This document shows, piece after piece, positions 12,892 through 37,077 of a DNA stretch of 46,551 nt. How positions within the stretch are numbered: the stretch's first letter is position 1; each line of letters opens with the position of its first letter. The notes under the pieces were generated by a model, which did no database searches, was not told the origin of the DNA, and worked only from the letters and a program-made list of their open reading frames with translations. This stretch comes from an uncultured Thermotogae bacterium (GTDB lineage: Bacteria; Bipolaricaulota; Bipolaricaulia; UBA7950; UBA9294): positions 1 to 46,551 of the forward strand of contig CAYHBG010000003.1 of NCBI GenBank assembly GCA_964354815.1, given 5' to 3'. Position numbers and translations under genes: made by a program.

Positions 12892-12952
12892 CGGTTCGCT
12901 CTCCTCTGCGGATACCGCCCGCACACAACGCACGGCCCGATCATCCTGTTGC

Positions 12953-13279
12953 TCACGCGCGGCGTCTCCACAGAAGAGCGGCCACGCCAGCGCTTATCAC
13001 GACGGGCGTGGGCGGCTCGGGGACCGGCACGCAGTCTTCGGGGTAACCCCGAACGACGACCACAGACACGAGCCCACCCACCGCGTTGTGGGCCGACACG
13101 TGAACGCACTCGGTGCCCGTCGACTGCGACCAACCCGGCTCCACGCGAACGGTCGTGACGGGGCCCTGCGACTCAAGGCACTTCATCTGGATGTCGTACC
13201 CGCCCGCAGCGTGTGCGGAGCCGCCGCACGAGAAGGCAGAGAAGAGGACCGCGAGAACGAGGGCCGTCGTGTAACGCAT
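12953..13279 (-). CDS. Small exported protein with C-terminal PEP-CTERM sorting signal (108 aa)
   Basis: N-terminus MRYTTALVLAVLFSAFSCGGSAHA/AG is a signal peptide. The C-terminus PVPEPPTPVVISAGVAALLWRRRA-stop has the PEP motif, a hydrophobic helix and an Arg cluster. Start overlaps the upstream stop (TGATG). Confidence 0.75.
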   Translation of the reverse strand: MRYTTALVLAVLFSAFSCGGSAHAAGGYDIQMKCLESQGPVTTVRVEPGWSQSTGTECVHVSAHNAVGGLVSVVVVRGYPEDCVPVPEPPTPVVISAGVAALLWRRRA

Positions 13280-14181
13280 CAGAGTGTCCTCATCCACTGG
13301 CACTGCGAACCTGCCAGCGCGTTGATCAAGCTGTTCGCCACCTCGCTCGCATGCGTGACCTGCATCGTGCCCGATGCCGACGGCGTGACGATGCCCTCGA
13401 TGATCGCCACGTTGCCAGCCGTCAAGCTCGATGCGTTCGACGCGGCCGGGATGGCGAAGGCCGTCGCGTAGTTGGTCGTCAGCGTGGTGGCCGTGAGCGG
13501 GTAGCTGCTCGTGTAGCTGAGGTTCGTGACCGTCGGGCCGCTCATGCTCCAGCGAGACCCGGTCGTCGTCGCGGCAGACGTGTAGGCGATCGCGCAGCGC
13601 CACCAGTACGACTCGCCTGCCGTCACCGAGAAGCTGAGCCCGGTCACGTCCTCGATCGTGTTCGCGACGGCGTTGTTATTTCCGACCGCGGCCGAAAGAA
13701 CGACGGTGTTGAGCGTGTTGGCGACCTGTCCGGCGTTCTGCACGCTGGTCTTGAGGCGGCCCTGCGAGTCGTAGAATCCGAAGTTGCCGTTCGCGAGAAG
13801 CTTGATCGACTCGCCCGCCGCCACCGTGGCCTTGAACTGTCTTCGGTCGGTCGCGCTGCGGTCGATGTTGATCGTGATGTCGTTGGACGTGGACGCGTGC
13901 GTGTTGTAGACGGTCAGCTCGCGCACATAACGCCAGTTCGACGCGGCGGGGGCAGCGAGGATCGTGGTGGTCGTGGCAGACGACACGGTCCCCGTCGTCG
14001 TGCCGGGGGTCGTCAGGGCCGTGGCCGTGACGTTGCTCCACGACACGTGGTACTCGGTCGTCGCGGTCGACGACGTGATCATCTCCAGCGAGTCGGTCGA
14101 CCCCTCCAGAATCAGGTTCGCGCCAGCGGCCCCGGCCCAGAGACTAGAAGCCAGCCAGAGTAGCAGCAGCAGCATTCGCAT
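13279..14181 (-). CDS. Exported beta-rich, Ser/Thr/Ala-rich protein (300 aa), fibre/lectin-like
   Basis: Signal peptide MRMLLLLLWLASSLWAGAAGA. GGGGGA SD 7 nt upstream. The composition is typical of phage fibre distal domains. No enzymatic motif recognised. Confidence 0.65.
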   Translation of the reverse strand: MRMLLLLLWLASSLWAGAAGANLILEGSTDSLEMITSSTATTEYHVSWSNVTATALTTPGTTTGTVSSATTTTILAAPAASNWRYVRELTVYNTHASTSNDITINIDRSATDRRQFKATVAAGESIKLLANGNFGFYDSQGRLKTSVQNAGQVANTLNTVVLSAAVGNNNAVANTIEDVTGLSFSVTAGESYWWRCAIAYTSAATTTGSRWSMSGPTVTNLSYTSSYPLTATTLTTNYATAFAIPAASNASSLTAGNVAIIEGIVTPSASGTMQVTHASEVANSLINALAGSQCQWMRTL

Positions 14182-15040
14182 ACGTTATTCCCCCACCGCC
14201 GCCCTCGGCGTCTGAACCGTCCCCCACGCAGCCGTCGGGGATCGGTGTTGAGTCGTTCTCCAGAATGCAGTTGTCGATGATGTAGTCCAGCTCCGCGTCG
14301 GCCCGCTGCGCTCCCGCCGTCGCGCGGATCGCCGCCGCGTCGTTGTCGTCGAGAAGACCGCGCGCGTATGCCGTCGTGGGGAGAGCGGCGATGGCCTCCA
14401 GGTCCGCGTCGAGCCAGGCGCTGTCGAGGCGAGCGCCGGCACCCGCCTTCGGAATCGCGTTGGCCGCGGCGGTCGCGGTGGCGACCTCGTCTCCTCCCCC
14501 GTTCTGGTGCTCGGTCGCGTGGGTCTCCTCTTCGAGGTCGTTGGCCACGTTGGTTCCGGCGTTCACCACGAGGTCGCAGTCGACCTTGGCGCCCGTGGTC
14601 TCCCACGTGCACAGCGCCTCGTCGGTCTCGGTCCCCACGACCTCGTCGGCCTCCGTCAGACCGTTCACCTGCGCGTCGGTGGCGGTCCCCGACAGCCAGC
14701 TGAAGTCGGGCTGCGCCCGCGTGACGGCGCCCGCGGCCACGCCCGTCACGCACTGGTTCGCGACGGCGGCCCCGAACACGATCTCGGCAGACAGCGAACC
14801 GCTGGCCGTTCCCACGAGGTAGTCGACGGTCGTCGGCGCGCCTCCACCCCCGCCGATGGCCGCTCCGCCGATGGTGGTGCCGGCACGGAGGTCGACCGGA
14901 GCCACGGTGTCGGCTGGAGCCGTCAGAAGCGCGTTGAGGCGCGCGTTCAGTTTGTTGACGCGGGGCGTGAGGTCCTGCGCCGAAGCGCCGACCGCGCACA
15001 GCAGCCCCACCCACACGACTAGCGCTTCAAGATTCCGCAT
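14144..15040 (-). CDS. Exported tail-fibre-like protein (298 aa)
   Basis: Signal peptide MRNLEALVVWVGLLCAVGASA/QD. Contains HATEHQNGGGDEV and ANAIPKAGAGARLDSAWLDADLEAIAAL, motifs I recognise from many phage tail-fibre proteins. Confidence 0.7.
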   Translation of the reverse strand: MRNLEALVVWVGLLCAVGASAQDLTPRVNKLNARLNALLTAPADTVAPVDLRAGTTIGGAAIGGGGGAPTTVDYLVGTASGSLSAEIVFGAAVANQCVTGVAAGAVTRAQPDFSWLSGTATDAQVNGLTEADEVVGTETDEALCTWETTGAKVDCDLVVNAGTNVANDLEEETHATEHQNGGGDEVATATAAANAIPKAGAGARLDSAWLDADLEAIAALPTTAYARGLLDDNDAAAIRATAGAQRADAELDYIIDNCILENDSTPIPDGCVGDGSDAEGGGGGITYANAAAATLAGF

Positions 15041-15312
15041 CGCGTAAGCATCGCCCCCATCGCCTCGACGGCCTCGGCCACGTGCGCCTCATCCCCCGCC
15101 GCCGTTTCCTGCTCCGCCAGCTGCACCAGCGCGAAGTAGCCGATCAACTGCTGCCTGTTCCACTTCCGACATACCCCCTCCGGCACCGGCCGCGGAGCGG
15201 GCGGCTGCCTCGGACATGCGAGAAAGCTCGTCGAGATCAGGATCAGAATCCACGAGAAGGTCGATCGTCGCCACGAGGTCGGCCATCCGCGACTGGATGT
15301 CGTCTCTCTCAC
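15019..15312 (-). CDS. Candidate o-spanin (outer-membrane lipoprotein), overlapped with the i-spanin gene
   Basis: Alternative frame, GTG start at 15312. WRRSTFSWILILISTSFLAC fits the lipobox pattern. The mature part begins CPRQPPAPRPVPEG (Pro-rich). By hand count, third-position GC in 15091-15216 is about 36/42 in this frame versus 21/42 in the i-spanin frame. Confidence 0.45.
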   Translation of the reverse strand: MRETTSSRGWPTSWRRSTFSWILILISTSFLACPRQPPAPRPVPEGVCRKWNRQQLIGYFALVQLAEQETAAGDEAHVAEAVEAMGAMLTRCGILKR

Positions 15313-15433
15313 GTTGCGCCTCCAACAGCCTCTTCTTGGTCTTCCTGCGCGCGGCCTCGACCGCGCAAAGCGCGGCGACCAACACGAGGATCACGCCCGC
15401 GTTGACCGCCGCCGCCCACGCCATCGCGCTCAC
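15089..15433 (-). CDS. Candidate i-spanin (N-terminal TM helix plus coiled coil)
   Basis: GTG at 15433 overlaps the holin stop (GTGA), with GAAGG 7 nt upstream; the alternative start is ATG at 15424. AWAAAVNAGVILVLVAALCAV is followed by the charged helical EAARRKTKKRLLEAQRERDDIQSRMADLVATIDLL. Confidence 0.5.
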   Translation of the reverse strand: MSAMAWAAAVNAGVILVLVAALCAVEAARRKTKKRLLEAQRERDDIQSRMADLVATIDLLVDSDPDLDELSRMSEAAARSAAGAGGGMSEVEQAAVDRLLRAGAAGGAGNGGGG

Positions 15434-15621
15434 GGGTTCGCCTTCGACCGCCGACGCAGGATGAACACACCCACGCCCAGAAGAGACAGCACCAGCGCGC
15501 CCCAAGGCGGCGGGATGATGGGCGTCTGCAGGAGCATCTGCTGCGCTGCCTCCAACCCGCCCAGAACCGCGACCGCCACCCCGGCCTCCGTCAGACCCGT
15601 CTTCTGAATTGCTCCGCTCAC
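15430..15621 (-). CDS. Candidate holin (63 aa, two hydrophobic segments, basic C-terminus)
   Basis: GTG at 15621 overlaps the upstream stop (GTGA), with GAGGAGG 7 nt upstream. GLTEAGVAVAVLGGLEAA and WGALVLSLLGVGVFIL are followed by RRRSKANP. Lies next to the endolysin and spanin genes. Confidence 0.5.
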   Translation of the reverse strand: MSGAIQKTGLTEAGVAVAVLGGLEAAQQMLLQTPIIPPPWGALVLSLLGVGVFILRRRSKANP

Positions 15622-15866
15622 TTCGCGTCCTCCTCTTTCATCGGGCAATCGGCCCGAAACAGCGTGAAGTCTTCGGACGTGACCGCGTGGTCCCCGTCGA
15701 GGTCGGCCCGTTTGTTGTAGCCCACGTCTCCCTCGGCCAGCCCCAGCGTTTCGTAGAACGCGCTGTAGTCGGCCAGCGTGGACTGTTTTCCGTCGCGGTC
15801 GAGGTCGCAGGGCTTGTCCTGGCACCCGGCCAGCACCAGCGCGGCGGCGAGAAGTAGTCGTTTCAT
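15618..15866 (-). CDS. Lipoprotein with two EF-hand/dockerin-like calcium-binding loops (82 aa)
   Basis: MKRLLLAAALVLAGC is a canonical lipobox. The loops are DLDRDGKQSTLAD and DLDGDHAVTSEDF. ATGA overlap with the endolysin stop. Confidence 0.65.
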   Translation of the reverse strand: MKRLLLAAALVLAGCQDKPCDLDRDGKQSTLADYSAFYETLGLAEGDVGYNKRADLDGDHAVTSEDFTLFRADCPMKEEDAK

Positions 15867-16261
15867 GCGGTCCCCCTCTGAGGCTTGGGGTCGTGCTCCA
15901 CGTGGATGTGGAGGTTCGTCCCTTCGCCGTGAACGATCACATCGTAGTCGGCCCCCAGCCATTTGCGAATCTGGGACCCCACGAGGTCGTAGTGCATCTT
16001 CAGCAGACGCTCGCCCCTCCCGTTCTCGGCCGTGAAGTCGAAGGCCTTGCAGGCCTCGTGCTGGTCCTTCGTGTCTCGGATGTGGCGGTGGCCCTCCGTC
16101 ACGCGGACGACCGACACGTCCTCGCGTAGGGCGAATGCCTGAACCGACGCTCGAAGGATCTCCAGCGTGTAGGGCTGGAAGTGCGCCGCGAACATGCGGC
16201 AGCCCCGCCCCGATGCAGAGTCTCTGTCGTCCTTGAATATCACGCGAGGTCCTAACGTCAT
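15863..16261 (-). CDS. Endolysin candidate, M15-type (hedgehog/DD-peptidase fold) zinc peptidase (132 aa)
   Basis: H-x6-D motif (QHEACKAFD) and LHIHVEH, preceded by LEILRASVQAF...VRVTEGHRH, as in Peptidase_M15_3-like phage lysins. ATGA overlap with the upstream gene. Confidence 0.6.
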   Translation of the reverse strand: MTLGPRVIFKDDRDSASGRGCRMFAAHFQPYTLEILRASVQAFALREDVSVVRVTEGHRHIRDTKDQHEACKAFDFTAENGRGERLLKMHYDLVGSQIRKWLGADYDVIVHGEGTNLHIHVEHDPKPQRGTA

Positions 16262-16575
16262 TTCAGTACGTGCTCCTTGAACCAGCCCCACACGGCAGAC
16301 AGCGCGCCGCCGCCCAGCACGATGGTCGCTCCCGTCCGCATCCAGGTGTCCTTGCGCTCGTCGGCCTTCTCCTCGGCGTCGTCGCGCTCGTCGAACCGCG
16401 CGTTGGTGTTCTCGATGTGCAGCGCCAGCGTGGTGTCGATGCGAGCAATCTTCTCGCCCTGCGAGTCGATCTTCGCGTGAATGTCCTTCAACGCCGCAGT
16501 CCTGTCCCGATTCGCCTCGGTGAACTTCTGATCGATGTGGTTGATCAGCGTGAGCGTGTCGTGTTCAGCGGGCAT
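16258..16575 (-). CDS. Coiled-coil protein with C-terminal TM anchor (105 aa)
   Basis: ATG at 16575 overlaps the upstream stop (TGATG). Helical, charged body, then TGATIVLGGGALSAVWGWF near the C-terminus. Confidence 0.55.
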   Translation of the reverse strand: MPAEHDTLTLINHIDQKFTEANRDRTAALKDIHAKIDSQGEKIARIDTTLALHIENTNARFDERDDAEEKADERKDTWMRTGATIVLGGGALSAVWGWFKEHVLK

Positions 16576-16667
16576 CAGGGGAACCCGCTCGTGGCGAACC
16601 ACGCGATTACTGCGCCGCCGCCGACCGCCTCCAGCACCCGCCAGTAGTGGAACTCGTCGTCAGCCAT
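16575..16667 (-). CDS. Micro-ORF, 30-aa membrane peptide
   Basis: MADDEFHYWRVLEAVGGGAVIAWFATSGFP. Its start overlaps the stop of the 437-aa gene and its stop overlaps the next start (TGATG at both ends). It exactly fills the gap between neighbours. Confidence 0.4.
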   Translation of the reverse strand: MADDEFHYWRVLEAVGGGAVIAWFATSGFP

Positions 16668-17980
16668 CAGGGCATGCCCACCGCAGCGCATGAGACCGGG
16701 ACGCCTTGGCGGATGTGGATGTTGTCTCGGTAGCGGTAGGCCACCTCTGCAAGTCCTGTGTCGTTGGCGAGGTTCGAGTATGCGTTCCACCAGAATGAGT
16801 TGTAGTAGTTGGAGACCATTGCAGTCGTGTCGAGTCCGCTGATGTGGATCACGAGCATCTCGTTGTGCCAGACCTTGAGTTCCATCGACGACGTGCCCAT
16901 GCCCGTGATATGCCCGCGCGTGCAGGCCCACTCACCCCACGGCCAATCCGTCGCACGGTCGTATTTCGTGACGCCGCTTCCCTCGTACTCATCGACGGCC
17001 CAGTTCGGGAATACGTTTCCGTCCGCCGAGAGGCCCATCTTCGTGTCGTCGTTCATGCAACCAATCGATCCGACATGCGCCGTAGCGGTGTGGATGTACG
17101 ACTCACAGGCGGCGTTGGATGTCACCCAGAAGAACGGCTGATAGGGGAAGAAATCGTTATCGCCCGCGCCGCCCGGGCCGATCATCCCCATGAACGGCTG
17201 TTCGTCTGCGGGTCTCCACTCTTCAAACTTCCAGGGAGCCCCTGATGTAATAATCCCGCTATCGATTGTGTTTGTGGCGTGCGCACTGAGCATCGTGAAC
17301 CCGATCTCAGTCGAGTTTGTAAAGTTCTTCTGACCAGCGCCGCCGTCCGTGTCGAAGTAGGCGCCGCCTCTTGGCACGCGGATCGCGAGGTGAGCATTTC
17401 CCGCTCCGATATCTGCGGTGGCACCAGTCCCACCCGTGAGGGTCAAGTCCGTGACTTCTTCGTCGAAGTCTCCCGAACGCTGAAACCAAACCTGCGATTT
17501 GTCATTGATATCAGGTCCCCAGCAATCGAGGCCAGCGCCGTTTAGAGCACCCTGCGCCGCCGAGCAGTATGTCAGAACACCGGCACATACACCCGTCGCT
17601 TCATTGACGTTCGACCCGCAGGCCGATCCAAGTGTCGGCGTTGGATCTGATGAACTGAAATAACCATCCCAAGACGGCTGACCGTAGATCGAGTACCACG
17701 TCGATGCTTCGCCTCGGTTATGGTTGACGCCTGAACCCGTGCCCGCGATGATGCTATTGGCCGTGTTCAGGTAGTAGTCCGGGTTCTCAAAGTCCTCGCA
17801 AAGCAACAGGCTCCCGTCCGACACCGTGTCGCAGTAGCAGTCGACGCCGTCTGTGCAGGCGCTGAATGAACCACCTCCACCGGCCGGAGGCGCGATTCGC
17901 GACACGCCGACGAAAGTCACGCCAGAGTCGGCCGACGCACTGACCGAAAATAGCAATGCAAGGACGACGAGAAACCGCAT
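16667..17980 (-). CDS. Exported Cys- and aromatic-rich protein (437 aa), candidate glycan-degrading enzyme
   Basis: Signal peptide MRFLVVLALLFSVSASA/DS. GAGGTG lies 4 nt upstream of the ATG at 17980; the alternative is ATG at 17992, overlapping the upstream stop. The C-terminal strand pattern (ELKVWHNEMLVIHISG...AYRYRDNIHIRQG) is reminiscent of concanavalin-like lyases/glucanases, but this is weak. Confidence 0.65.
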   Translation of the reverse strand: MRFLVVLALLFSVSASADSGVTFVGVSRIAPPAGGGGSFSACTDGVDCYCDTVSDGSLLLCEDFENPDYYLNTANSIIAGTGSGVNHNRGEASTWYSIYGQPSWDGYFSSSDPTPTLGSACGSNVNEATGVCAGVLTYCSAAQGALNGAGLDCWGPDINDKSQVWFQRSGDFDEEVTDLTLTGGTGATADIGAGNAHLAIRVPRGGAYFDTDGGAGQKNFTNSTEIGFTMLSAHATNTIDSGIITSGAPWKFEEWRPADEQPFMGMIGPGGAGDNDFFPYQPFFWVTSNAACESYIHTATAHVGSIGCMNDDTKMGLSADGNVFPNWAVDEYEGSGVTKYDRATDWPWGEWACTRGHITGMGTSSMELKVWHNEMLVIHISGLDTTAMVSNYYNSFWWNAYSNLANDTGLAEVAYRYRDNIHIRQGVPVSCAAVGMP

Positions 17981-17988
17981 AACACACC

Positions 17989-18750
17989 TCATTCTGATTT
18001 GAATCCGAGAACGGTCACAACCCAGTGGTTGTTTGCTGTGTAGGTTGACGACGCCGTTTGGGTGGTCAGAGGCGATGTGAACGATCTGCACCACGTGTAG
18101 GCCCCGTTCTGCTGGTGGACGTGATCGGCTGTCGTCCCGGCAACCACCGAGTTGCTGTGTGTTCCGCTCGTGTAGATTGCTGAAAGAGCGCACACCACGT
18201 TGTCAGAGCCGGTCGTCGAGAAAGACCCCGACAGAAGGCTAAGGCTGTTTCCCTGCCCCTCGCGCGTCCCGCTGATGTCCTTCGACACCGTCTCGGTTCC
18301 CGCTCGGCGGTACTGCATCACGATGATTCGGCTGTATGCCTTCGCCGCTCCCAGCGTGGCCGTGAACGTGGCCGTCGCGTTGGCCGACGCGCTCGTCTTG
18401 TAGAGCGGGTGGACGGTGATTTCGCCGCCCGAGTTGGTGATGTCCTCTCCTGTGTCGAAGGTCAGCGAGTTGGAGCCGCCGTCCGTGACGGTGGCCGTCG
18501 TGGCGCCGCCGTCCTCGTACGACACCATCGCGACGACGAGGTCGCCCGCCGCCAGGACAAGTGGGTCGGATGTGGAAACGGTCGTGCCAGCCGCGTCCAC
18601 TCCACCGCTCGCGGAGTCGACGAACGTGAACTCGGTGCCTCCACCCCCGCCGCCGCCGCCGCCGCTCTCGCCACCCCCGCCCATCGTGACGACGCCAGGC
18701 CACGCGCAGAGGAGCGGGATCGCGAGGAGAACGAGTAGTAGTTTTCGCAT
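17989..18750 (-). CDS. Exported protein with poly-Gly linker and beta-rich domain (253 aa)
   Basis: MRKLLLVLLAIPLLCAWPGVVTM, then GGGGESGGGGGGGGG, then a ~200-aa Ser/Thr-rich domain. Start overlaps the tailspike stop (TGATG). Confidence 0.65.
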   Translation of the reverse strand: MRKLLLVLLAIPLLCAWPGVVTMGGGGESGGGGGGGGGTEFTFVDSASGGVDAAGTTVSTSDPLVLAAGDLVVAMVSYEDGGATTATVTDGGSNSLTFDTGEDITNSGGEITVHPLYKTSASANATATFTATLGAAKAYSRIIVMQYRRAGTETVSKDISGTREGQGNSLSLLSGSFSTTGSDNVVCALSAIYTSGTHSNSVVAGTTADHVHQQNGAYTWCRSFTSPLTTQTASSTYTANNHWVVTVLGFKSE

Positions 18751-21700
18751 CAGTTTGCCGCCCAGTCGCCGGCCTTGCCCAGCACGATCCACTCGTCGTC
18801 AGCCCCGTTGTCGCGTCCGATCATGCACACGAAGTCGCCCGTCGTGGGCGTGCTGGCGTCGATCGTGGAACCGGCCGTTCCGGCCACGCCCGACAGCCTG
18901 ATCCAGTCGTCCGCGTCGGCGTCGATGATGAGGTTGCCGGCCCCGTTCATGTTGTAGAAGCATGCGTTGACCCCGTCGCCGGCCGTGGCGATCTTGGGGA
19001 GCGTGACCGTCTTCGTGGACCCGCTCGTGTACCAGTGGACCGCGCCTCGGATCGATCGTCCGCTGGGCGAGTGCGTGGTGCCCGACGTGGTGAGGTTGTA
19101 GGAGGTTCCGGTCAGGAACCCGCTCACGTCGAGGGGCTTGGTCGTGGTGATGATCGCGTTCGCCCCGTTGAGGAGCATGTACTGCTGATCGATTCCGGTC
19201 CCGTCGTCGACGACCATCTCCATCGATGACGTGGTGCCGTTGTCGCTGAGCCTGACCGCGACCTCCTGCGCGTCCGTCGCGCTCGTGAGCCTGACCTCGG
19301 CGGTGTCCGAGGGCGTGGTCGTGATCGTGGGCGCGACGACCGAACCGAGAAGCGTCAGCTTGTCGAGGGCGGCGTCATACACCATCCCCGCATCGCCGCC
19401 CAGAACGTCTCCGGTGTCGTGGTACTGAACGGTTCCGATGGCGCCGCCAGGTGCGCCGCTGCCACCCGTGTCGAGTGCCGTCAGCGCGTTGTTCTGGCAC
19501 TTCATCAGCTTGCCTTCAGACGTGTCGTAGAAGATCCCACCGCCCGGATTCGCGAAGGTGGAGCAGTCGTTCAGGGCGTCGCCCGTCTCGAACTCGACGC
19601 CGAGAGCGTCCGCGAACATCTCGGCCGTGTTGATCTGCGCGCCCGTGAAGGTGTTGCTCGCGTCGGTCCTCGCGGCCGTGAAGTTGGCGTCTGGGAACGT
19701 GACTGTCCTCGCCTGCGTCGGACCCGCGATCATCAGCGAGAAAGGCGCGAGCGGGAAGAAGTACTCGGTGTCTGCGCCGCCCGTGTCTGGCGCGAGAGAA
19801 ATGCTGTACTTGAACTCGGTCGGATTGTTGGTTGCGCCCTCTCCGATCCATCCGCCGGCTCCCGTTCCGGTGGTCGTGAACTCAAGTTGCTCGACGCCCA
19901 TCGACGCGGACGCGTAGTCCTTCGAGAAGTCGAAGTCGAAGGAGATCGTGTCGGGGTCGCCGTTCGTGAAGACGGGGACGATGCCTCGGCCACCGTACAG
20001 CTCGACTCCGTCCGGGGAATCGACGTAGTTGGTCCCTCCCTCGGAGATGGGGAACCCGTGATTGAACTGGGTCCACTCGCCCTCCGTCTTGCAGATCCCG
20101 TCGGTGGCGGGCGTCGGCTCGCACACGAAGAGGGTGTCGTCGGACTGGAAGCAGAGGTCTCCCGCAACGTGAACGCCGGCCGCGCCCCAGGCAGGGCAGT
20201 TGGCCGAATATCCCACTTCGCCCGTTGCGGTGGTCGCCAATGCTCCGTTCCACACGCTGATATTCGCGGAGTTGAGCAACCTGATCTCAGCCCCGCCAGT
20301 GTAGTTCACACCGCCAGCAAGGTCTCCTCCTATCACTACGTCGGGTGTGCCGAACCAGTTATTGTCGCTGCGCACGATGTCGTGCCCTACCGCCGCACTC
20401 GACATTTGTGGGGCGATTCCTATGTACGACGCATGATTGCTGACGATGTTGATGTTGTCGGTCTCGTTCTCCCAGTGCGTTCCAATATCCCGGACAAGGC
20501 ACGCCGACGCTGTCGTGTCGGTTCCGAGAATTGAGAGTCCGATCGTGTTGGCCTCAATGGTCGCACCCGACAAAGTTATGTTTTGGCACGACCCCTGGTC
20601 CGCTAGCAGAAGGCCCACATCGTTCGCCCTGATCTGAACGCCAGACAATAGGTTTGCGTTGGACTGATTGCTTTCGGGGCTGGCAATCGTCAATACCTTC
20701 GTCAGCTTGATACCCGCATCGAAGTTCTTGATCGTCCCGCCTATGATCTGCGACTTCAATCCGAACCGCATTAGGACACCAGTCCCTAACGTGTCAGTCA
20801 GGTCGCCCAAACTTGTGTCGATGCCGATCACGGAAACGTGATCGAGCAAGAAATTGGCGACACCGTGCTCTCCGGTCAAATACGCATCGAAGGCCTCCGA
20901 CTCGATCTGGATTCCAATCCCGTTTGCGGTGATACCCGGAAGAACCATGTCAAACCCGCGCAGCACCTGACTTGACCCATTCACTCGGATCGCGGTCTTG
21001 TCTGCGCTGTTGTTGATGATCAGCGTGCTTCCGCCATAGACGTTGTACTCCGTCGCGTTCATGGAGCCCGCCCCTTCCAGAGAGCAGTGCCCACGGTGGC
21101 CCCAGTTGTCAGCAGGCAGGTTGATGATGGGCGAAGCAATGGCCGTCGCGTCGATCGTTGTGACGCCAGCCGGCAGAATGACCCGACCACCGTTAGCGGC
21201 ATCGCAGGCTGCGAGCGCCTGAACGATTCCACCCGTGTCGGACCCTGACGCGTACTGCGACGCGAACCACGTGCGCGAGTCGAGCTTCTTCGTCTGAAGG
21301 TCGAGAACCTGAGTGATGCTGTTCCCGTTCGCTTCGAGCGGGCCTCCGAGGGTCGGCGAGCCGTCGGCGGCCACCTCGGCAATGCCGCCTCCGGCGATCC
21401 CGATCCCGACCCAGCTCGTACCGTTCCAACCGCACCACAGGTCGGCGGTGGCCGGCGTCCCGCCCACGTCGCAGACGGACCCCACGTTGTTGTCGTCGGT
21501 CAGCAGCCACTGGTCTCCGGCCGCCGGGACCGACAAGATCATGTCTTCGTAGAGGCCGCTTCCGATCACGCCGCCAGACCCGCTTCCCGCCGAAGCGGAG
21601 CAGAAAACCAGCGCGTACGACGGGATGGTGGTCGACGTTTCGGACGTGTCGACGACGATCCTGAACTGCGTGGAGTCCTGCGGCACCACGATGGTCTGGT

Positions 21701-21998
21701 CCACCGTGAACTGCACGACGAGCGTGGCCGCCTCGATTTCGGCCAGCGTGTCGTCGGTCGGCCTCGTCGCGTACAACGACGCGACCGCCCCGGTGGAGCG
21801 GTCCCAAGTCACGCGCATGGAACCGCACGACTGGATCGGCATCGTGAAGTCGTTGACCGCGCGGTTCGACCCGAACTCGAACATCTGCGAGGCGCCCGAA
21901 GGCAGCTGCTTGTAGCTGCCCGTGAACTCCGCGGCGGTCGCGGGCAACGCCAGGAAAAGGGCCAGCAGAAATAACACAAAGCGAATCTTCATCATCAT
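18750..21998 (-). CDS. Tailspike/depolymerase-like protein with right-handed beta-helix (1082 aa) and N-terminal signal peptide
   Basis: MMMKIRFVLFLLALFLALPATA/AE. Fibre motif DGSPTLGGPLEANGNSITQV. Pectate-lyase-like start of the beta-helix IVQALAACDAANGGRVILPAGVTTIDA, followed by many short repetitive strands. AGGAGGGA SD. Confidence 0.8.
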   Translation of the reverse strand: MMMKIRFVLFLLALFLALPATAAEFTGSYKQLPSGASQMFEFGSNRAVNDFTMPIQSCGSMRVTWDRSTGAVASLYATRPTDDTLAEIEAATLVVQFTVDQTIVVPQDSTQFRIVVDTSETSTTIPSYALVFCSASAGSGSGGVIGSGLYEDMILSVPAAGDQWLLTDDNNVGSVCDVGGTPATADLWCGWNGTSWVGIGIAGGGIAEVAADGSPTLGGPLEANGNSITQVLDLQTKKLDSRTWFASQYASGSDTGGIVQALAACDAANGGRVILPAGVTTIDATAIASPIINLPADNWGHRGHCSLEGAGSMNATEYNVYGGSTLIINNSADKTAIRVNGSSQVLRGFDMVLPGITANGIGIQIESEAFDAYLTGEHGVANFLLDHVSVIGIDTSLGDLTDTLGTGVLMRFGLKSQIIGGTIKNFDAGIKLTKVLTIASPESNQSNANLLSGVQIRANDVGLLLADQGSCQNITLSGATIEANTIGLSILGTDTTASACLVRDIGTHWENETDNINIVSNHASYIGIAPQMSSAAVGHDIVRSDNNWFGTPDVVIGGDLAGGVNYTGGAEIRLLNSANISVWNGALATTATGEVGYSANCPAWGAAGVHVAGDLCFQSDDTLFVCEPTPATDGICKTEGEWTQFNHGFPISEGGTNYVDSPDGVELYGGRGIVPVFTNGDPDTISFDFDFSKDYASASMGVEQLEFTTTGTGAGGWIGEGATNNPTEFKYSISLAPDTGGADTEYFFPLAPFSLMIAGPTQARTVTFPDANFTAARTDASNTFTGAQINTAEMFADALGVEFETGDALNDCSTFANPGGGIFYDTSEGKLMKCQNNALTALDTGGSGAPGGAIGTVQYHDTGDVLGGDAGMVYDAALDKLTLLGSVVAPTITTTPSDTAEVRLTSATDAQEVAVRLSDNGTTSSMEMVVDDGTGIDQQYMLLNGANAIITTTKPLDVSGFLTGTSYNLTTSGTTHSPSGRSIRGAVHWYTSGSTKTVTLPKIATAGDGVNACFYNMNGAGNLIIDADADDWIRLSGVAGTAGSTIDASTPTTGDFVCMIGRDNGADDEWIVLGKAGDWAAN

Positions 21999-24900
21999 TC
22001 CCTCCTATCTCGGGGCTTTCGCCAGATCAGGTCGCGCGGAGAGCCCATCTCCTCGCCCGGCCAGAAGTTGTCGACCCAGATCTCGGCTTGCGAGAGCGGG
22101 GCCACGCGACCCATCGTGAGACCTTGCATCGTCAGAAGCGTGAGCTTCTCCGCGTCGAACTGCTCGTCCTCGTTGAACACCGCCTGCAGCTCGTCGAACA
22201 TCTGAACGGGCACGTCGAGCATTCGGCTGGCCGGGCTCTTTCCGAGGAACCTTCGCTTCTCGGGAAAAAGCATACCGTCGACCAGCTGGCTGACGCCCGG
22301 AACAGGCGACGCGAGAAGCGAAACGGCGCGCTTGAGTGACCAAGACAGCCACTCCTTCTCGCCCTCGTCGTCCTCGGGAGGGCCCTCCCCGCGGATCAGC
22401 GCGTCGAGCATCGCTGGCACGTAGATGGTCGTGATGATCATCCACGCGGCCGACGCCGGCATGGCCCTTCGGACCGCGCGCCCGTCCACGTCCTCGGTCG
22501 CCTGAAGCCCGCCCGCCATCCGAGCGGCGCGACGCGTTCGCGCGTAGATGTTGGACGTGAACGATCCGAACAGCGTGACCCACCGAACCCATCCCTCGGC
22601 CCGCATGAGCTGGCTCGCTCCCGCGATGGTCGACGATCCCTGCGTGCGCTCGATCGCACGATCTGCCTCTCGGATCGCGCGGGCCATGTCGCCGTGCTGA
22701 GACATCGACTTCATGCGCTGCGCGTCCCACACGATCGAGCTGACCACCGCGTCGGCCGTCGTGATGAGGATGCCCGTGTTGGCGTCGATGCGCGCCTTCA
22801 GCGAGTTTCGGTCCTGCTTCCTCGAAAGCATCTCCCGAAGCTCGCGGTCCTTCGTGATGCCGCGGTGCTGGAGCACTCGGCTGGCCGCGCGGACCTCGCG
22901 CACGAGACCCCAAACACCCTTGCGCGTCGAGTTGGCGATGGCCATGGCCATCCAGTGCGGTCCGACCTCCGAGAATCCGGGAGCGAGGCCCGTCACCTGA
23001 ATGAGGCCGGTCGAGATGCGGTAGGCGAGGCCCGAGTAGATCACGCTCGAACGCGCCAAGCTGTTGATCTTCTCGGCCTTCCGCCATCCGTCAGACGGTT
23101 TGCCGCTCTTCACTCGCGCGGCGTCGTGCACCATCTTCTTGAGCGCGTCCACGTACTCGGGCCCCCACGTCTTTCGGATGACCGACTCGAAGCGGGGGTG
23201 GTTCACGATCTTGTAGGTGTCGCGAACGGCCTTGCGCATCGTGAGGTCGTAGATCACGCGGTCAAGATGCTGAGAGATGACTCCGATGTCGGTGTCGAGC
23301 GGGGCCGAGTACTTGGCCGCGCGCGACTTCACGTGTCCGTGCTCGACCTCGCTCTTCACGAAGTTGTGGCCGAACATCCCCTCCACGTCTGCCTTGTCGT
23401 TGAGGGCCTGCGCTCGTTTGTTGTACTTGCTCCAGTACTTGGCGGGCATGTACCCGCCGTTCATCTTCTGTCCGGTGTGCGCGATGAACTCGCGGCGCTC
23501 CAGCGCGGTCGGGCGGTTGCCCGTCATCTCGAACTCGTGCTCGAACACTCGCCCGCGAAGACCCTCGAACGCGTCCCAGATCTCCTGCGCGATCTTCAGA
23601 TCCTCGACTGTCAGGTGCTGCTGGATCGCCTGCTCCATCACGCCGGGCGTCCAGCCCTTGAGGTCCTCGTTTCCCGCATATCCCTCGTCGCGGCGGTACA
23701 GGTTCGACTCGGTCCCCGAGTGGAGGAACCACATGAGGACCTCGTAGATCCGCACCTTATTCGGCGTGCCGGGGTTGTCGACGCCCGGCAGCGCGATCTC
23801 GCGGTTCATGCGAACCCAGTCGAGCTTGTCCATGGCCGCGAGCCAAGGCTTCGTCAGCTCGTTGGAACCGTCGATGTAGTCGTGCTCGCCTCGGTCGATG
23901 CTCTCGAACACGTACCGCCGAAGCGTGTTGTTCTGGATGTCGTCGCCGCCCGCGAAGTCGATCCAGTCGACGATGCGAAGGAGCATCGCGTCGGCCCACC
24001 GGATCATGTCTCGGAGCGACTGCAGCGACATCGGGTTAGGCCGGCTCGACTGGCCCTGCTTTCGGAGTCCGTTGACCTCCTCCACGCGCGACACGATCTG
24101 GTCCACGGCCGTCTCGATGGCCACCTTCTCGCCCGTGCGGATGTCCTTGACCTCCTGCCTCGAAGCGGTCTCGATGTTTCGGATCACGTCGATGAGCCCG
24201 AGGAACTCGCTGACGGGCATCTTGGACCAGTGCCTCGTGTCGGACTCCGCGTGCATCAGCCAGTCGGGAACCGAGATCGATTCGAGGTGCGACTCCTCTG
24301 CCGACTTCACGAACTCGGCCAGCGACTGAAGACCCTCGGCCTGCTGCGCGGCCACGATGATCTTCTGCAGCTTCACACCGAAAAGCGTCTGGCCCTCGGG
24401 CCGACCGCGGCGGGCCTTGCTGAGGTCGTACCTCTGCATCAGCTTGACGATCTGCGCGGCTCCGTCGAAGCCGGGCGCTCGCAGCTTCGCGAGGTTCTTT
24501 CCCTTCTTGAGCTTGTCGAGCATGCGCCACCCGCGCTCGCTCTCGACCATCGTGCGGTTGATCTCGTCGACCGCGTAGTCGGCCATCATCTGCCGCTCGA
24601 TCTCCACGGCCGCGTCCGCGAACTTCCTGGCGGCGAGCGCCTTGCGAGCGGCCTTTCCCGCGGCGCTCGCGACGGTGTTCCACGCGTGGCGCTGCTTCTT
24701 GAGGTCGCCGGCCAGAACGTCTCCGACCAGCTGGCGGGCCCGGCCTCGGAGGATGCCCGCGCGAAGGCGCTCCTCGATCGCTCGGAGCGTCTGCCCTGCC
24801 ACCCGAGCCTGCTTCCTGCCCTCGACCGCGGCCGTCTGCTGCGCGCGGGCGTTGACCACGAGGGCCTGAAGGTCCGAGATGGCCTGCTGGCTGGCTCCCG

Positions 24901-37074: not shown

Positions 37075-37077
37075 GTG

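What the first reader, a model, noticed from the sequence alone, without database searches (positions are those of the whole stretch)
12953..21998. Every fibre / depolymerase-like protein of this phage begins with a classical Sec signal peptide
Six proteins in the distal late block start with an n-region, a hydrophobic core and an AxA-type cleavage site:
- 1082 aa: MMMKIRFVLFLLALFLALPATA/AE
- 253 aa: MRKLLLVLLAIPLLCAWPG
- 437 aa: MRFLVVLALLFSVSASA/DS
- 298 aa: MRNLEALVVWVGLLCAVGASA/QD
- 300 aa: MRMLLLLLWLASSLWAGAAGA
- 108 aa: MRYTTALVLAVLFSAFSCGGSAHA/AG
The block also holds a canonical lipoprotein (LAGC). Several of these proteins are clearly fibre-like. The 1082-aa protein has the fibre motif SPTLGGPLEANGNSI and a pectate-lyase-type beta-helix entry GGRVILPAGVTTIDA. 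The 298-aa protein has HATEHQNGGGDEV and IPKAGAGARLDSAWL. Tails of tailed phages assemble in the cytoplasm, so exported receptor-binding proteins are not expected, and no alternative signal-less fibre gene exists in the genome. Either the N-termini are uncleaved helices with a new role in assembly or anchoring, or the phage secretes a battery of fibre-like enzymes/lectins into the envelope and uses something else for adsorption. I am not aware of either having been described.
Basis: partly seen in the sequence, partly recalled or inferred. Interest (0 to 1): 0.85.

Follow-up and report, generated by a model that had tools for sequence, protein, structure and literature searches.

The report
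Phage tail-fibre proteins carrying export signals
In this complete podovirus genome, the only candidate host-recognition protein and five neighbouring fibre-like proteins start with genuine-looking secretion signals, and related uncultured phages show the same pattern; this implies these proteins fold outside the cytoplasm, where tailed-phage particles are normally built.

Summary
The window is a complete 46.5-kb BPP-1/epsilon15-like podovirus. Six proteins of the distal late block, plus one lipoprotein, have n-region, 11-14-residue hydrophobic core and small -3/-1 residues. None of the ~36 other genes does, and neither do about 157 other mechanical ORFs.

The signal is conserved:
- All 35 homologues of the N-terminal domain of the 1082-aa protein keep it. 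An Ala sits at the aligned -1 position in 23 of 26, while the core sequence drifts.
- 107 of 149 homologues of any module start with a signal peptide.
- Syntenic genes in related metagenomic phages do too.

The exported proteins are 2.6-fold enriched in Cys, with conserved pairs. One ends in a probable PEP-CTERM anchor.

The 1082-aa protein sits exactly where five GenBank relatives, four of them cultured, encode a signal-less tail fibre or tailspike. That canonical docking domain is absent from the whole genome.

Best reading (about 0.45): real Sec export, periplasmic oxidative folding, and attachment of the spike to the tail only after the holin breaches the inner membrane.

Main rival (about 0.35): the proteins are exported, act on the envelope and never join the virion.

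I found no description of either in phages. The closest analogues are bacterial: Bdellovibrio MAT fibres and WceF. No signal-peptide predictor or experiment was available.

The parts
18750..21998 (-). p1082: signal peptide + conserved N-domain + beta-helix + mosaic C-terminal modules. It is the syntenic replacement of the podovirus tail fibre/tailspike.
   Evidence: AGGAGG Shine-Dalgarno site; ATGA overlap with the stop of the giant internal protein. 277 homologues with mosaic module sharing. Sits at the same locus as Bbp9, Dpo31 and similar proteins in relatives.
21933..21998 (-). p1082 signal peptide, aa 1-22 (MMMKIRFVLFLLALFLALPATA | AEF)
   Evidence: In the alignment of 26 homologues, the column of A22 is Ala in 23/26 and the column of A20 is a small residue in 25/26. 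Every sequence but one (a 17-residue N-terminus) has K/R in the first 8 residues, and acidic residues are almost absent before the site. AF2 models aa 3-15 as a lone helix.
21594..21932 (-). p1082 N-domain, aa 23-135: eight-stranded beta-sandwich with an invariant Cys58 and a near-invariant Cys133.
   Evidence: AF2 with a 26-sequence alignment gives pLDDT 88, and above 95 over aa 21-135. Foldseek finds only generic jelly-roll/cupin/CBM-like matches, TM 0.4-0.6. No PDB sequence relative. It lies at the N-terminus of 35 otherwise different proteins.
20049..21281 (-). p1082 aa 240-650: probable right-handed beta-helix (CASH/pectate-lyase-like) module.
   Evidence: About 25 homologues. The profile matches the N-cap of AlgE4/AlgE6 epimerases and a pectate lyase at E = 1.4e-4 to 2e-3. 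Faint NosD/Beta_helix Pfam hits in homologues. Weak evidence only.
19449..19646 (-). p1082 aa 785-850: highly conserved two-Cys module (…DCSTF…GGGIFYD.SEGK..KCQ.N…).
   Evidence: Shared by more than 80 protein clusters at 50-63% identity, with both Cys invariant. Almost absent from 185,579 reference genomes.
18753..19130 (-). p1082 aa 957-1082: C-terminal knob with a conserved Cys pair.
   Evidence: About 43 homologues, many of them short stand-alone proteins. C1013 and C1058 are invariant. No PDB or Pfam relative.
17989..18750 (-). p253: signal peptide, Gly-run linker, Thr/Ser/Ala-rich beta domain.
   Evidence: N-terminus MRKLLLVLLAIPLLCAWPG. The start overlaps the p1082 stop by 1 nt. A homologue at 51% identity, with a signal peptide (…AMPATA|F), lies directly after the signal-peptide-bearing spike of phage contig L013.
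16667..17980 (-). p437: signal peptide (SASA|DS) and a Cys-rich (12 Cys) mature protein.
   Evidence: Weak homologue with a signal peptide in L013. No family hit.
16258..16602 (-). p114: small protein with a C-terminal transmembrane segment (lysis-cassette member).
   Evidence: Counterparts in L004, L009, L013 and L015.
15863..16261 (-). p142 (more likely 132 aa, starting at ATG 16261): conserved lysis-cassette protein, putative endolysin (inferred).
   Evidence: 40-62% identical homologues at the same place in L007, L009, L013 and L015. No Pfam hit. The enzymatic role is inferred from position and an HxH motif only.
15618..15866 (-). Lipoprotein (MKRLLLAAALVLAG|C) with a dockerin/EF-hand-like Ca-binding repeat pair.
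   Evidence: Lipobox seen directly in the sequence. Weak Dockerin_1 hit, E = 0.008, below the Pfam cut-off. Homologues in L009 and L013.
15430..15621 (-). Holin candidate: 63 aa, two transmembrane segments, basic C-terminus.
   Evidence: GTG start with GAGGAGG Shine-Dalgarno site; GC3 frame plot. 36% identical homologue in L013.
15089..15424 (-). i-spanin candidate (N-terminal transmembrane segment + coiled coil).
15019..15312 (-). o-spanin candidate overlapping the i-spanin gene in another frame (lipobox SFLA|C, Pro-rich).
   Evidence: The GC3 frame switches and a GGAGG site precedes the GTG start.
14144..15040 (-). p298: signal peptide (GASA|QD) + fibre-type modules (GGGAPTTVDYLV; H..EH.NGG.DE; IPKA.A.G.LD..WL).
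   Evidence: Full-length homologues P0154, P0158 and P0164 have divergent signal peptides followed by a conserved mature start, (D/T)PRVN.L.ARLNAL. The same sub-motifs occur in signal-less phage fibre proteins.
13279..14181 (-). p300: signal peptide (AAGA|N) + Thr/Ser/Ala-rich beta domain.
   Evidence: Homologues at 54-56% identity, with signal peptides, in L004 and L009.
12953..13279 (-). p108: signal peptide (SAHA|AG) + small Cys-containing domain + C-terminal PEP-CTERM-like anchor. The anchor is aa 85-108, window 12956-13027 (VPVPEPPTPVVISAGVAALLWRRRA).
   Evidence: Pfam PF07589: E = 8.7e-4, 19.7 bits against a 20.7 cut-off. TIGR02595: 15.5 against 16, plus two PEP-CTERM family models. The L013 homologue, 50% identical, ends VPVPEHPSLGLGLVLLAGLARGRRRE.
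21995..31267 (-). Context: giant 3090-aa internal virion protein whose stop overlaps the p1082 start.
   Evidence: The C-terminal ~800 aa are homologous to BPP-1 Bbp10 and to counterparts in CP2, Carin1 and Vibrio phages. Zero Cys.
34291..38079 (-). Context: nozzle (927 aa, 34291-37074) and adaptor (333 aa, 37078-38079). These are the only possible docking platform, or the only possible alternative adsorption device.
   Evidence: PHROG tail-protein hits. The nozzle is 33% identical to BPP-1 Bbp13, with two insertions of about 90 and 175 aa. The adaptor is 110 aa longer than Bbp14.

Best explanation
The N-termini are real, cleavable Sec (type I) signal peptides.

Proposed sequence of events:
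1. Late in infection, the phage translates p1082, p253, p437, p298, p300 and p108, plus one lipoprotein, from the distal end of the late transcription unit.
2. SecYEG exports them unfolded, and signal peptidase cuts at the conserved A-x-A site. For p1082 the cut is after A22, leaving AEFTG…
3. They fold in the oxidising periplasm, where the conserved cysteine pairs become disulfides.
4. p1082 is the phage's receptor-binding spike. It has replaced the usual signal-less tail fibre at the same locus, swapping the canonical tail-docking domain for 'signal peptide + new beta-sandwich domain'.
5. Heads and tails are built in the cytoplasm, so the spike can reach the tail only when the holin opens the inner membrane. 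In the seconds before the spanins and the endolysin burst the cell, the two compartments mix at high concentration. Alternatively the attachment happens in the fresh lysate.
6. The other exported proteins are either spike accessories or act on the envelope. p108 would be handed to the host's exosortase system.

Shown: the signal-peptide features and their conservation; the synteny; the lack of any other fibre; the Cys enrichment.

Inferred: actual export and cleavage; disulfide formation; the spike role of p1082; post-breach attachment.
For: Signal peptide is real:
- All 7 N-termini pass a strict rule that flags 0 of about 157 other ORFs and 0 of about 36 other genes.
- 35/35 N-domain homologues, and 107/149 homologues of any p1082 module, begin with one.
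- In the 26-sequence alignment, the -1 column is Ala in 23/26 and the -3 column is a small residue in 25/26, while the hydrophobic core is not conserved in sequence.
- p298 homologues have unrelated signal peptides before a conserved mature N-terminus.
- Cores are 11-14 aa.

Extracytoplasmic folding:
- Cys is 1.78% in the mature exported proteins against 0.68% elsewhere (p = 1e-6).
- p1082 has 16 Cys in local pairs and p437 has 12. The giant internal protein has none.
- The pairs C58/C133, C812/C834 and C1013/C1058 are invariant or nearly so in homologues.
- p108 carries a PEP-CTERM-like anchor, a signal that only makes sense on exported proteins.

Spike role:
- The p1082 start overlaps the stop of the giant internal protein.
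- In BPP-1, Carin1 (validated EPS depolymerase Dpo31), CP2, Vibrio 1.021 and ctEw122, the gene at this position is the tail fibre or spike. It carries the canonical 'Y.GNG…F.F.F' N-terminus and no signal peptide.
- That canonical domain is absent from the complete genome.
- Related phage contigs L004, L007/L008 and L009 have the same order: giant protein, then signal-peptide + N-domain protein.
- In the T7-like contigs L001 and L010, the gene lies after the large terminase. From my own knowledge, SP6 and K1-5 keep their tailspikes there.
- In a lambda-like contig (L014) a signal-peptide-bearing homologue follows gpJ.
- The protein is a mosaic. Its modules are shared with signal-less phage fibres that start MADTKISALTS….
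- The family is essentially absent from 185,579 bacterial and archaeal genomes, so these are not prophage morons.

Feasibility, from established knowledge: P22 tailspikes and T4 fibres attach to finished particles in vitro, and canonical holins make very large inner-membrane lesions.
Against: - No signal-peptide predictor, proteomics or experiment was available. Export and cleavage are inferred.
- I know of no precedent for a tailed phage whose receptor-binding protein is assembled from the periplasm.
- The N-domain shows no fold similarity to known tail-docking domains.
- The N-domain occurs in phages whose adaptor and nozzle proteins share no detectable sequence similarity with those of this phage (L024). 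This is unexpected for a docking domain.
- One such phage (L001) also has a canonical signal-less fibre.
- The same block encodes a lipoprotein and a PEP-CTERM protein, which points to an envelope-directed programme rather than virion building.
- Disulfides could also form after release.
Confidence: 0.45

Rival explanations
1. Exported but never part of the virion. The phage secretes a set of fibre- or lectin-like proteins and enzymes into the periplasm, outer membrane or exopolysaccharide matrix of the infected cell.

Possible roles there: destroying or masking receptors (superinfection exclusion, or preventing progeny from sticking to debris), loosening the matrix before the burst, or decorating the cell surface as Bdellovibrio MAT fibres do. 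In that last case the conserved N-domain would bind a host envelope component.

Adsorption would then rely on the enlarged nozzle or adaptor.
For: - The signal-peptide evidence is the same as above.
- The N-domain is shared by phages with unrelated tail hubs.
- The T7-like phage L001 has a canonical fibre as well.
- A lipoprotein with dockerin-like repeats and a PEP-CTERM protein lie in the same block.
- The whole distal cassette (p253, p437, lysis genes, p108) moves between podoviruses with different head/tail modules. That fits a host-envelope-specific cassette.
- The nozzle has two unexplained insertions and the adaptor is 110 aa longer than in BPP-1.
- Bacterial analogues exist. MAT fibres have a signal peptide, a conserved ~130-aa beta-rich N-domain and mosaic trimeric fibres, and are surface-located (PMC10769870). 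WceF is an exported tailspike-fold EPS hydrolase (PMC7949094).
Against: - It leaves a complete podovirus genome with no recognisable receptor-binding protein, while all five GenBank relatives examined encode one at exactly the p1082 locus.
- The genes sit at canonical fibre/spike loci in at least four phage architectures.
- They are absent from bacterial genomes and prophages, where exclusion or conversion genes normally abound.
- No route across the outer membrane is evident.
Confidence: 0.35
2. The hydrophobic N-termini are not cleaved signal peptides. They would be signal-anchors or amphipathic assembly helices that hold the fibres at the cytoplasmic face of, or across, the inner membrane until lysis. 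Alternatively they would be buried in the tail on docking.
For: - This is the only way to keep classical cytoplasmic tail assembly.
- AF2 models the segment as a helix.
- p253 lacks a clear AxA site.
Against: - Cores are only 11-14 residues, followed by a helix-breaking Pro and a conserved small-x-small site at one aligned position in 23-25 of 26 homologues.
- Core sequence is free to vary. That is typical of signal peptides and unlike a helix that docks into a protein partner.
- Cys-pair enrichment and the PEP-CTERM tail point to the periplasmic side.
- A strongly hydrophobic N-terminus with a basic n-region would be targeted to Sec/SRP in any case (established knowledge).
Confidence: 0.08
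3. Artefact. The start codons are wrongly chosen, or the matches are chance in GC-rich sequence, and the real proteins begin downstream of the hydrophobic stretch.
For: - GC-rich genomes are rich in Ala, Leu and Val codons.
- Three of the ORFs extend upstream of the chosen ATG.
Against: - Shine-Dalgarno sites or stop/start overlaps sit at the chosen starts.
- GC3 supports the frames.
- 0 of about 157 other ORFs pass the rule.
- Independent gene calls in many assemblies include the hydrophobic segment.
- The next Met in p1082 lies inside the beta-sandwich.
Confidence: 0.02

Closest known systems
Podovirus tail fibres/tailspikes at the same locus: BPP-1 Bbp9 (+Mtd), Cobetia phage Carin1 Dpo31, T7 gp17, P22/epsilon15 tailspikes
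   Same: - Gene position directly after the internal virion proteins.
- Size of about 1000 aa.
- Mosaic build, with a conserved N-terminal module and swappable distal modules.
- A probable beta-helix.
- Modules shared with signal-less phage fibres.
   Different: - A Sec signal peptide is present.
- The canonical N-terminal tail-docking domain is missing and replaced by an unrelated beta-sandwich.
- Many conserved Cys pairs.
Bdellovibrio bacteriovorus MAT (mosaic adhesive trimer) fibres (Caulton et al. 2024, PMC10769870)
   Same: The architecture is the same: signal peptide, then an invariant ~130-aa beta-rich N-terminal domain with no PDB homologue, then a long mosaic fibre with phage-like, swappable tips (compared).
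   Different: - MATs are chromosomal genes of a predatory bacterium and are displayed on its own surface.
- The proteins here are encoded at fibre loci of lytic phage genomes.
- No sequence relative turned up in 185,579 reference genomes, a set that would normally include Bdellovibrio.
- Homology of the N-domains could not be tested directly.
Pantoea stewartii WceF and periplasmic EPS-trimming beta-helix enzymes (AlgG, NosD-like CASH proteins)
   Same: Exported proteins with a tailspike-like right-handed beta-helix that act on exopolysaccharide (PMC7949094). The beta-helix cap of p1082 weakly matches AlgE epimerases and a pectate lyase.
   Different: - WceF uses a Tat signal and is a host gene inside an EPS operon.
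- There is no mosaic fibre part and no phage context.
Phage-encoded exported accessory proteins (lambda Lom and Bor, T5 Llp, phi80/N15 Cor), Rz1-type o-spanins, and filamentous-phage pIII
   Same: These are phage genes with Sec or lipoprotein signals placed next to tail-fibre genes. pIII is a receptor-binding protein that is Sec-exported and disulfide-bonded (own knowledge; Lom is mentioned in PMC12309495).
   Different: - Lom, Bor, Cor and Llp are small, not fibre-like, and common in prophages.
- pIII belongs to phages that assemble by extrusion through the membrane. This phage is tailed and has a holin-endolysin-spanin cassette.

Membership tests
Sec-type (signal peptidase I) signal peptide | Positively charged n-region at the extreme N-terminus | tested here: met
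   K/R lies within the first 6 residues of all 7 proteins. p298 has net charge 0. 25 of 26 aligned homologues have K/R in the first 8 residues.
Sec-type (signal peptidase I) signal peptide | Uninterrupted hydrophobic core of about 7-15 residues, shorter than a transmembrane anchor | tested here: met
   Cores are 11-14 residues with 8-residue hydropathy of 2.8-3.7.
Sec-type (signal peptidase I) signal peptide | c-region with small uncharged residues at -3 and -1 (AxA) | tested here: met
   Sites are ATA|A, ASA|D, ASA|Q, AGA|N and AHA|A. The aligned -1 position is Ala in 23/26 and -3 is small in 25/26. p253 is unclear.
Sec-type (signal peptidase I) signal peptide | Physico-chemical pattern conserved in homologues while the sequence drifts | tested here: met
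   35/35 N-domain homologues and 107/149 of all homologues. The p298 family also shows this.
Sec-type (signal peptidase I) signal peptide | Positive call by a trained predictor, or demonstrated export and cleavage | not testable with these tools
   No SignalP, LipoP or DeepTMHMM was available, and no proteomics.
Bacterial lipoprotein signal (signal peptidase II) | Lipobox [LVI][ASTVI][GAS]C after a hydrophobic core | tested here: met
   VLAG|C at 15618-15866. SFLA|C in the embedded o-spanin at 15019-15312.
PEP-CTERM / exosortase sorting domain | C-terminal P-E-P motif, transmembrane helix and Arg cluster on a protein that has an N-terminal signal peptide | tested here: inconclusive
   p108 ends VPEPPTPVVISAGVAALLWRRRA and has a signal peptide. 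HMM scores fall just under the cut-offs: 19.7 against 20.7, and 15.5 against 16. The L013 homologue keeps the anchor.
PEP-CTERM / exosortase sorting domain | Host encodes an exosortase (EpsH/XrtA) | not testable with these tools
   The host is unknown. No relatives were found in reference genomes.
Podovirus tail fibre/tailspike (T7 gp17 / BPP-1 Bbp9 type) | Canonical N-terminal tail-docking domain | tested here: not met
   No Pfam or PHROG hit. tblastn with Bbp9, Dpo31 and the L001 fibre finds nothing in the window. The N-domain fold is a generic beta-sandwich.
Podovirus tail fibre/tailspike (T7 gp17 / BPP-1 Bbp9 type) | Gene located immediately after the internal virion protein genes | tested here: met
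Podovirus tail fibre/tailspike (T7 gp17 / BPP-1 Bbp9 type) | Physical presence on the virion tail, as a trimer | not testable with these tools
   The single-sequence AF2 model of the full protein was unusable, pLDDT 34. No multimer prediction was possible.
Bdellovibrio MAT fibre family | Signal peptide directly followed by a conserved ~130-aa beta-rich N-domain, then a mosaic fibre | tested here: met
   compared with the description in PMC10769870. This is similarity of architecture only.
Bdellovibrio MAT fibre family | Sequence or structure homology of the N-domain to MAT N-domains | not tested
   No MAT N-domain sequence or structure was at hand. Pattern scans of reference genomes found no relative.
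Bdellovibrio MAT fibre family | Chromosomal gene of the producing bacterium, displayed on its surface | tested here: not met
   The nine distinct loci inspected are phage-like contigs; eight carry terminase, portal, capsid or tail genes or the internal-protein-plus-replication layout, and L002 shows only internal-protein-like genes with no family hit.
Pectate-lyase-superfamily / CASH beta-helix depolymerase | Right-handed parallel beta-helix detected by profile or structure | tested here: inconclusive
   Only the ~30-residue cap motif matches AlgE and pectate lyase, E = 1e-4 to 2e-3. NosD/Beta_helix hits are faint. Catalytic residues are not identified.

The most novel reading that the evidence does not exclude
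A widespread but uncultured set of tailed phages would build their virions in two compartments. The set includes podoviruses of BPP-1-like, T7/SP6-like and SU10-like types, and at least one lambda-like siphovirus.

Heads and tails assemble in the cytoplasm. The receptor-binding spikes or fibres are Sec-exported, disulfide-bonded in the periplasm, and possibly pre-act on the envelope. They are joined to the tail only when the holin breaches the inner membrane.

The signal peptide plus a new beta-sandwich N-domain would replace the canonical tail-docking domain.
Probability: 0.4. Interest if true: 0.92.

Novelty: new variant of a known kind. Interest (0 to 1): 0.72.

Why it matters
Textbook assembly of tailed phages is entirely cytoplasmic, and receptor-binding proteins are not expected to carry export signals.

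This case has four features:
- The only spike candidate of a complete phage genome carries an export signal.
- So do its counterparts in several unrelated tail architectures.
- So do more than 100 homologous protein clusters.
- All of this comes with a disulfide signature.

If the spikes do end up on virions, three things follow:
- Assembly must be completed across a membrane breach. That would be a new step in phage morphogenesis, linking lysis timing to infectivity.
- Periplasmic folding factors (Sec, LepB, Dsb) become host factors for phage infectivity.
- Such spikes would need periplasmic expression to be produced for biotechnology.

If the spikes do not end up on virions:
- The phage has no recognisable adsorption protein.
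- It would instead deploy a large secreted 'fibre' arsenal on the infected cell. That would be a phage counterpart of the Bdellovibrio MAT fibres, which is equally undescribed.

Either way, annotation pipelines that treat signal peptides as evidence against a structural role would mislabel these genes.

Tried and rejected
- Pfam, PHROG and NCBIfam scans of all block proteins gave nothing except borderline PEP-CTERM and dockerin hits and weak holin-like hits.
- tblastn of p1082, p298, p300 and p437 against 50,697 GenBank phage records found no match.
- The word-indexed protein search found only p1082 itself, and only 2 hits for the N-domain profile. The exhaustive HMMER search was what revealed the family.
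- Single-sequence AF2 of p1082 was unusable, pLDDT 34.
- Foldseek of the N-domain gave only generic beta-sandwich matches, so it neither supports nor excludes a docking role.
- PDB profile searches for the N-domain, the whole protein and the C-terminal knob found nothing useful.
- I looked for co-variation between the N-domain and the tail hub. The adaptor and nozzle of the T7-like N-domain phage (L024) show no similarity to those of the window. This gives no support for docking and counts mildly against it.
- Host identification failed. There are no relatives of the N-domain in 185,579 genomes, and only four weak hits for the two-Cys module, in Saccharibacteria, Patescibacteria and Planctomycetota MAGs.
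- A dual-start model (long exported form plus short cytoplasmic form) was rejected. The next Met codons of p1082 lie inside the beta-sandwich and are not preceded by conserved starts.
- A SAR-type (signal-arrest-release) reading was rejected. The cores are Leu/Phe-rich, not Gly/Ala-rich.
- A Tat signal was rejected because there is no twin-arginine motif.
- Searches of the held paper library for a precedent found none.

Full report
**What the window is**

The 46,551-bp contig carries a 55-bp terminal direct repeat, so it is a complete circular assembly of about 46.5 kb. GC content is 65%.

Early and replication genes:
- Most lie on the + strand at 2.4-12.5 kb: PD-(D/E)XK exonuclease, family-A DNA polymerase and SNF2 helicase.
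- A primase-helicase lies at 21-2486 on the minus strand.

The late genes run on the minus strand from 46.4 kb down to 12.5 kb, in this order:
- small and large terminase
- T7-type portal (PF12236)
- scaffold/protease
- GP7-type major capsid protein
- Bbp16-like protein
- adaptor (333 aa)
- nozzle (927 aa)
- four internal virion proteins, the last a 3090-aa giant

The capsid protein is about 46% identical to those of BPP-1 and epsilon15-like podoviruses. The C-terminal ~800 aa of the giant protein are homologous to BPP-1 Bbp10 and its counterparts in Xanthomonas CP2, Cobetia Carin1 and Vibrio phages. The finding concerns everything downstream of that giant gene.

**Anatomy of the block (all minus strand)**

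- p1082, 18750-21998. Its ATG overlaps the giant protein's stop, and AGGAGG lies 5 nt upstream.
- p253, 17989-18750. Its start overlaps the p1082 stop by 1 nt.
- p437, 16667-17980.
- A lysis cassette:
  - p114, with a C-terminal transmembrane segment
  - p142, a putative endolysin that more likely starts at 16261
  - an 82-aa lipoprotein (VLAG|C) with a dockerin-like repeat pair
  - a 63-aa two-transmembrane holin, 15430-15621
  - an i-spanin, 15089-15424, with an o-spanin (SFLA|C) overlapping it in another frame, 15019-15312
- p298, 14144-15040.
- p300, 13279-14181.
- p108, 12953-13279.
- A small membrane protein.

**Is the signal-peptide pattern more than chance?**

Yes.
- A strict n/h/c rule flags all seven proteins. 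It flags none of the other ~36 genes. Of 164 mechanical ORFs of at least 100 aa in all six frames, it flags only three, all of them these genes. Fisher test: p = 5e-5.
- The hydrophobic cores are 11-14 residues, which is signal-peptide length and not anchor length.
- Start codons are backed by Shine-Dalgarno sites or stop/start overlaps, and by GC3.

**Conservation, the strongest evidence**

The exhaustive HMMER search with p1082 found 277 relatives. They are mosaic: different proteins share different modules of p1082. The modules are an N-terminal ~135 aa, a 240-650 module, a ~45-aa two-Cys module at 785-850, and a C-terminal knob at 957-1082.

- Thirty-five proteins share the N-terminal module, always at their own N-terminus, and every one starts with a signal peptide.
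- In the 26-sequence alignment, the column of p1082 A22 is Ala in 23/26 and the column of A20 is a small residue in 25/26. The next residues are E/Q then I/F/L. The hydrophobic core varies freely. This is how signal peptides evolve. It places cleavage after A22.
- Of all 149 listed homologues, 107 begin with a signal peptide. Many of these share only the beta-helix or the distal modules.
- The signal-less remainder are fragments or classic phage fibres (MADTKISALTS…) that share module 715-830.
- The p298 family behaves the same way. Its signal peptides are unrelated, and they are followed by a conserved mature start, (D/T)PRVN.L.ARLNAL.

**Independent signs of an extracytoplasmic fate**

- Mature exported proteins contain 1.78% Cys against 0.68% in all other proteins (p = 1e-6).
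- p1082 has 16 Cys in local pairs and p437 has 12. The 3090-aa and 639-aa internal proteins have none.
- C58 is invariant and C133 nearly so in the N-domain. Both Cys of the 785-850 module are invariant, as are both Cys of the knob.
- p108 ends in VPVPEPPTPVVISAGVAALLWRRRA. This is a full-length match to the PEP-CTERM models, just under their cut-offs. The 50%-identical homologue in another phage keeps the anchor. PEP-CTERM proteins are Sec substrates processed by exosortase (established knowledge).

**What p1082 is**

With the 26-sequence alignment, AF2 gives a confident model of aa 1-160 (pLDDT 88). It shows a lone N-terminal helix, which is the signal peptide, and an eight-stranded beta-sandwich spanning aa 28-134.

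Foldseek finds only generic jelly-roll, cupin and CBM-like folds, with nothing resembling a known tail-docking domain. The 240-650 module weakly matches the cap of AlgE epimerases and a pectate lyase, so 'beta-helix, depolymerase-like' is plausible but not proven.

*Synteny is clear.* In BPP-1 (Bbp9, then Mtd), Carin1 (Dpo31, a validated EPS depolymerase), CP2, Vibrio 1.021 and ctEw122, the gene after the Bbp10-like or giant protein is the tail fibre or spike. In all five it starts with the canonical docking motif and has no signal peptide. That domain is absent from this genome.

*Metagenomic relatives.* Contigs L004, L007/L008 and L009 share the giant protein. All have the order 'giant, then signal-peptide + N-domain protein (1103-1254 aa), then an ~850-aa signal-peptide/lipobox protein, then lysis genes'. 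L004 and L009 add signal-peptide-bearing p298 and p300 homologues.

*Other phage architectures.*
- In the T7-like contigs L001/L024 and L010, the signal-peptide + N-domain gene lies after the large terminase. From my own knowledge, that is where SP6 and K1-5 keep their tailspikes. L001 also has a 396-aa canonical fibre or adaptor.
- An SU10-adaptor podovirus (L013) has a signal-peptide-bearing spike with 26 Cys. It is followed by p253, p437, lysis-gene and p108 homologues.
- A lambda-like siphovirus (L014) has a signal-peptide-bearing homologue right after gpJ.
- A temperate HK97-type element (L015) has a lipobox or signal-peptide beta-helix protein with 25 Cys.

The family is essentially absent from 185,579 reference genomes.

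**Mechanism**

I take export as close to established, about 0.9 on sequence grounds. Two readings remain.

*(a) Virion spike, about 0.45.* p1082 is the virion's spike. It must then meet the tail after the holin opens the inner membrane, or in the lysate. This is physically reasonable, because tailspikes and fibres add last and attach in vitro (established knowledge). It explains several things:
- the locus
- the loss of the canonical docking domain
- the lack of any other receptor-binding protein
- the mosaicism
- the absence from prophages

*(b) Not on the virion, about 0.35.* The proteins never join the virion and act on the infected cell's envelope. Supporting points:
- The N-domain occurs with unrelated tail hubs, and alongside a canonical fibre in L001.
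- A lipoprotein and a PEP-CTERM protein are its neighbours.
- The cassette moves between phage types.
- The nozzle and adaptor are enlarged.
- Bacterial analogues exist (MAT fibres, WceF).

I rank (a) first, because (b) leaves a complete podovirus with no adsorption protein. The margin is small.

Uncleaved anchors (0.08) and artefact (0.02) are unlikely.

**Comparison with known systems and novelty**

The held paper library yielded no report of tailed-phage receptor-binding proteins with Sec signals.

The nearest architecture is the Bdellovibrio MAT family. It has a signal peptide, an invariant ~130-aa beta-rich N-domain without PDB homologues, and mosaic phage-like tips, and it is surface-displayed (PMC10769870). 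WceF is an exported tailspike-fold enzyme with a Tat signal (PMC7949094). Both are bacterial genes.

Among phages, Lom, Bor, Cor and Llp are small exported accessories. Only filamentous phages export their receptor-binding protein.

I therefore classify this as a new variant of a known kind: phage spikes and fibres with an export signal and a new N-terminal module. If the two-compartment assembly reading is right, the mechanism itself would be new.

**Limits**

- No trained signal-peptide predictor was available.
- There is no multimer or full-length structure.
- The host is unknown.
- There is no proteomics.
- The heuristic signal-peptide rules are my own.
- E-values for the beta-helix and PEP-CTERM matches are borderline.

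Noticed in passing
window 15019-15424: Rz/Rz1-style spanin pair. The Pro-rich lipoprotein ORF (lipobox SFLA|C, GTG 15312 with a GGAGG site) overlaps the 3' part of the i-spanin gene in a different frame and runs about 70 nt past its stop. GC3 switches frame across the overlap.
   Followed up: partly
window 21995-33183: The 3090-aa giant internal virion protein and the 639-aa protein before it contain no cysteine at all. The exported proteins next door are Cys-rich. This would fit proteins that must unfold and pass the tail channel.
   Followed up: partly
window 19449-19646 (p1082 aa 785-850): A ~45-aa two-Cys module (…DCSTF..TGGGIFYDDSEGKFKKCQDN.LTDLDT) is 50-63% identical across more than 80 protein clusters. 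These come from contigs with very different amino-acid composition, and the module is sometimes present 2-3 times per protein. It is nearly absent from reference genomes. Its function is unknown.
   Followed up: partly
window 15618-15866: The LAGC lipoprotein carries two DxDxDG-type Ca-binding loops resembling a type I dockerin (Pfam E = 0.008, below cut-off). It is conserved in L009 and L013 inside the lysis cassette. No cohesin-like partner was looked for.
   Followed up: no
window 12956-13027; L013 16799-17053: A phage-encoded probable PEP-CTERM protein. The L013 homologue keeps the anchor but has no in-frame signal peptide: the ORF opens only 6 codons upstream of its ATG. That copy is possibly a decaying gene or an assembly error.
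   Followed up: partly
window 34291-38079: Relative to BPP-1 Bbp13, the nozzle has two insertions, at about aa 127-212 and 645-822. The adaptor is 333 aa against 223 aa in Bbp14. These regions are unannotated. They could be a docking platform for the new N-domain or an adsorption device in their own right.
   Followed up: partly
L004 (JACCDG011143899.1, 63-kb contig) 10001-23705: This contig carries two signal-peptide + N-domain genes. The second follows a second set of internal-protein-like genes (150, 251, 374 and 709 aa) that matches the layout of L002. It is either a larger phage with two spike modules or a chimeric assembly.
   Followed up: no
L013 13294-17053 versus window 12953-18750: The whole distal cassette is shared with a podovirus that has a different (SU10-adaptor) tail module: p253 at 51% identity, p437 weakly, the lipoprotein, p142 at 62%, the holin, and p108 at 50%. 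The cassette seems to move as a unit.
   Followed up: partly
window 15863-16291 and homologues in L007, L009, L013, L015: p142 is a conserved ~130-aa lysis-cassette protein (…HGEG.N.HIH.E.DP…) with no Pfam, NCBIfam or PHROG endolysin hit. It may be an unrecognised endolysin family.
   Followed up: no
L002 4787-6623: P0040 (181 aa: signal peptide + N-domain) is followed by an overlapping out-of-frame ORF of at least 450 aa (it runs off the contig end). The homologue P0053 (909 aa) reads through the same junction (…DGDGLYEY.RFP.D.DGDG…) in one frame. This may be a frameshift, either programmed or a sequencing error.
   Followed up: no
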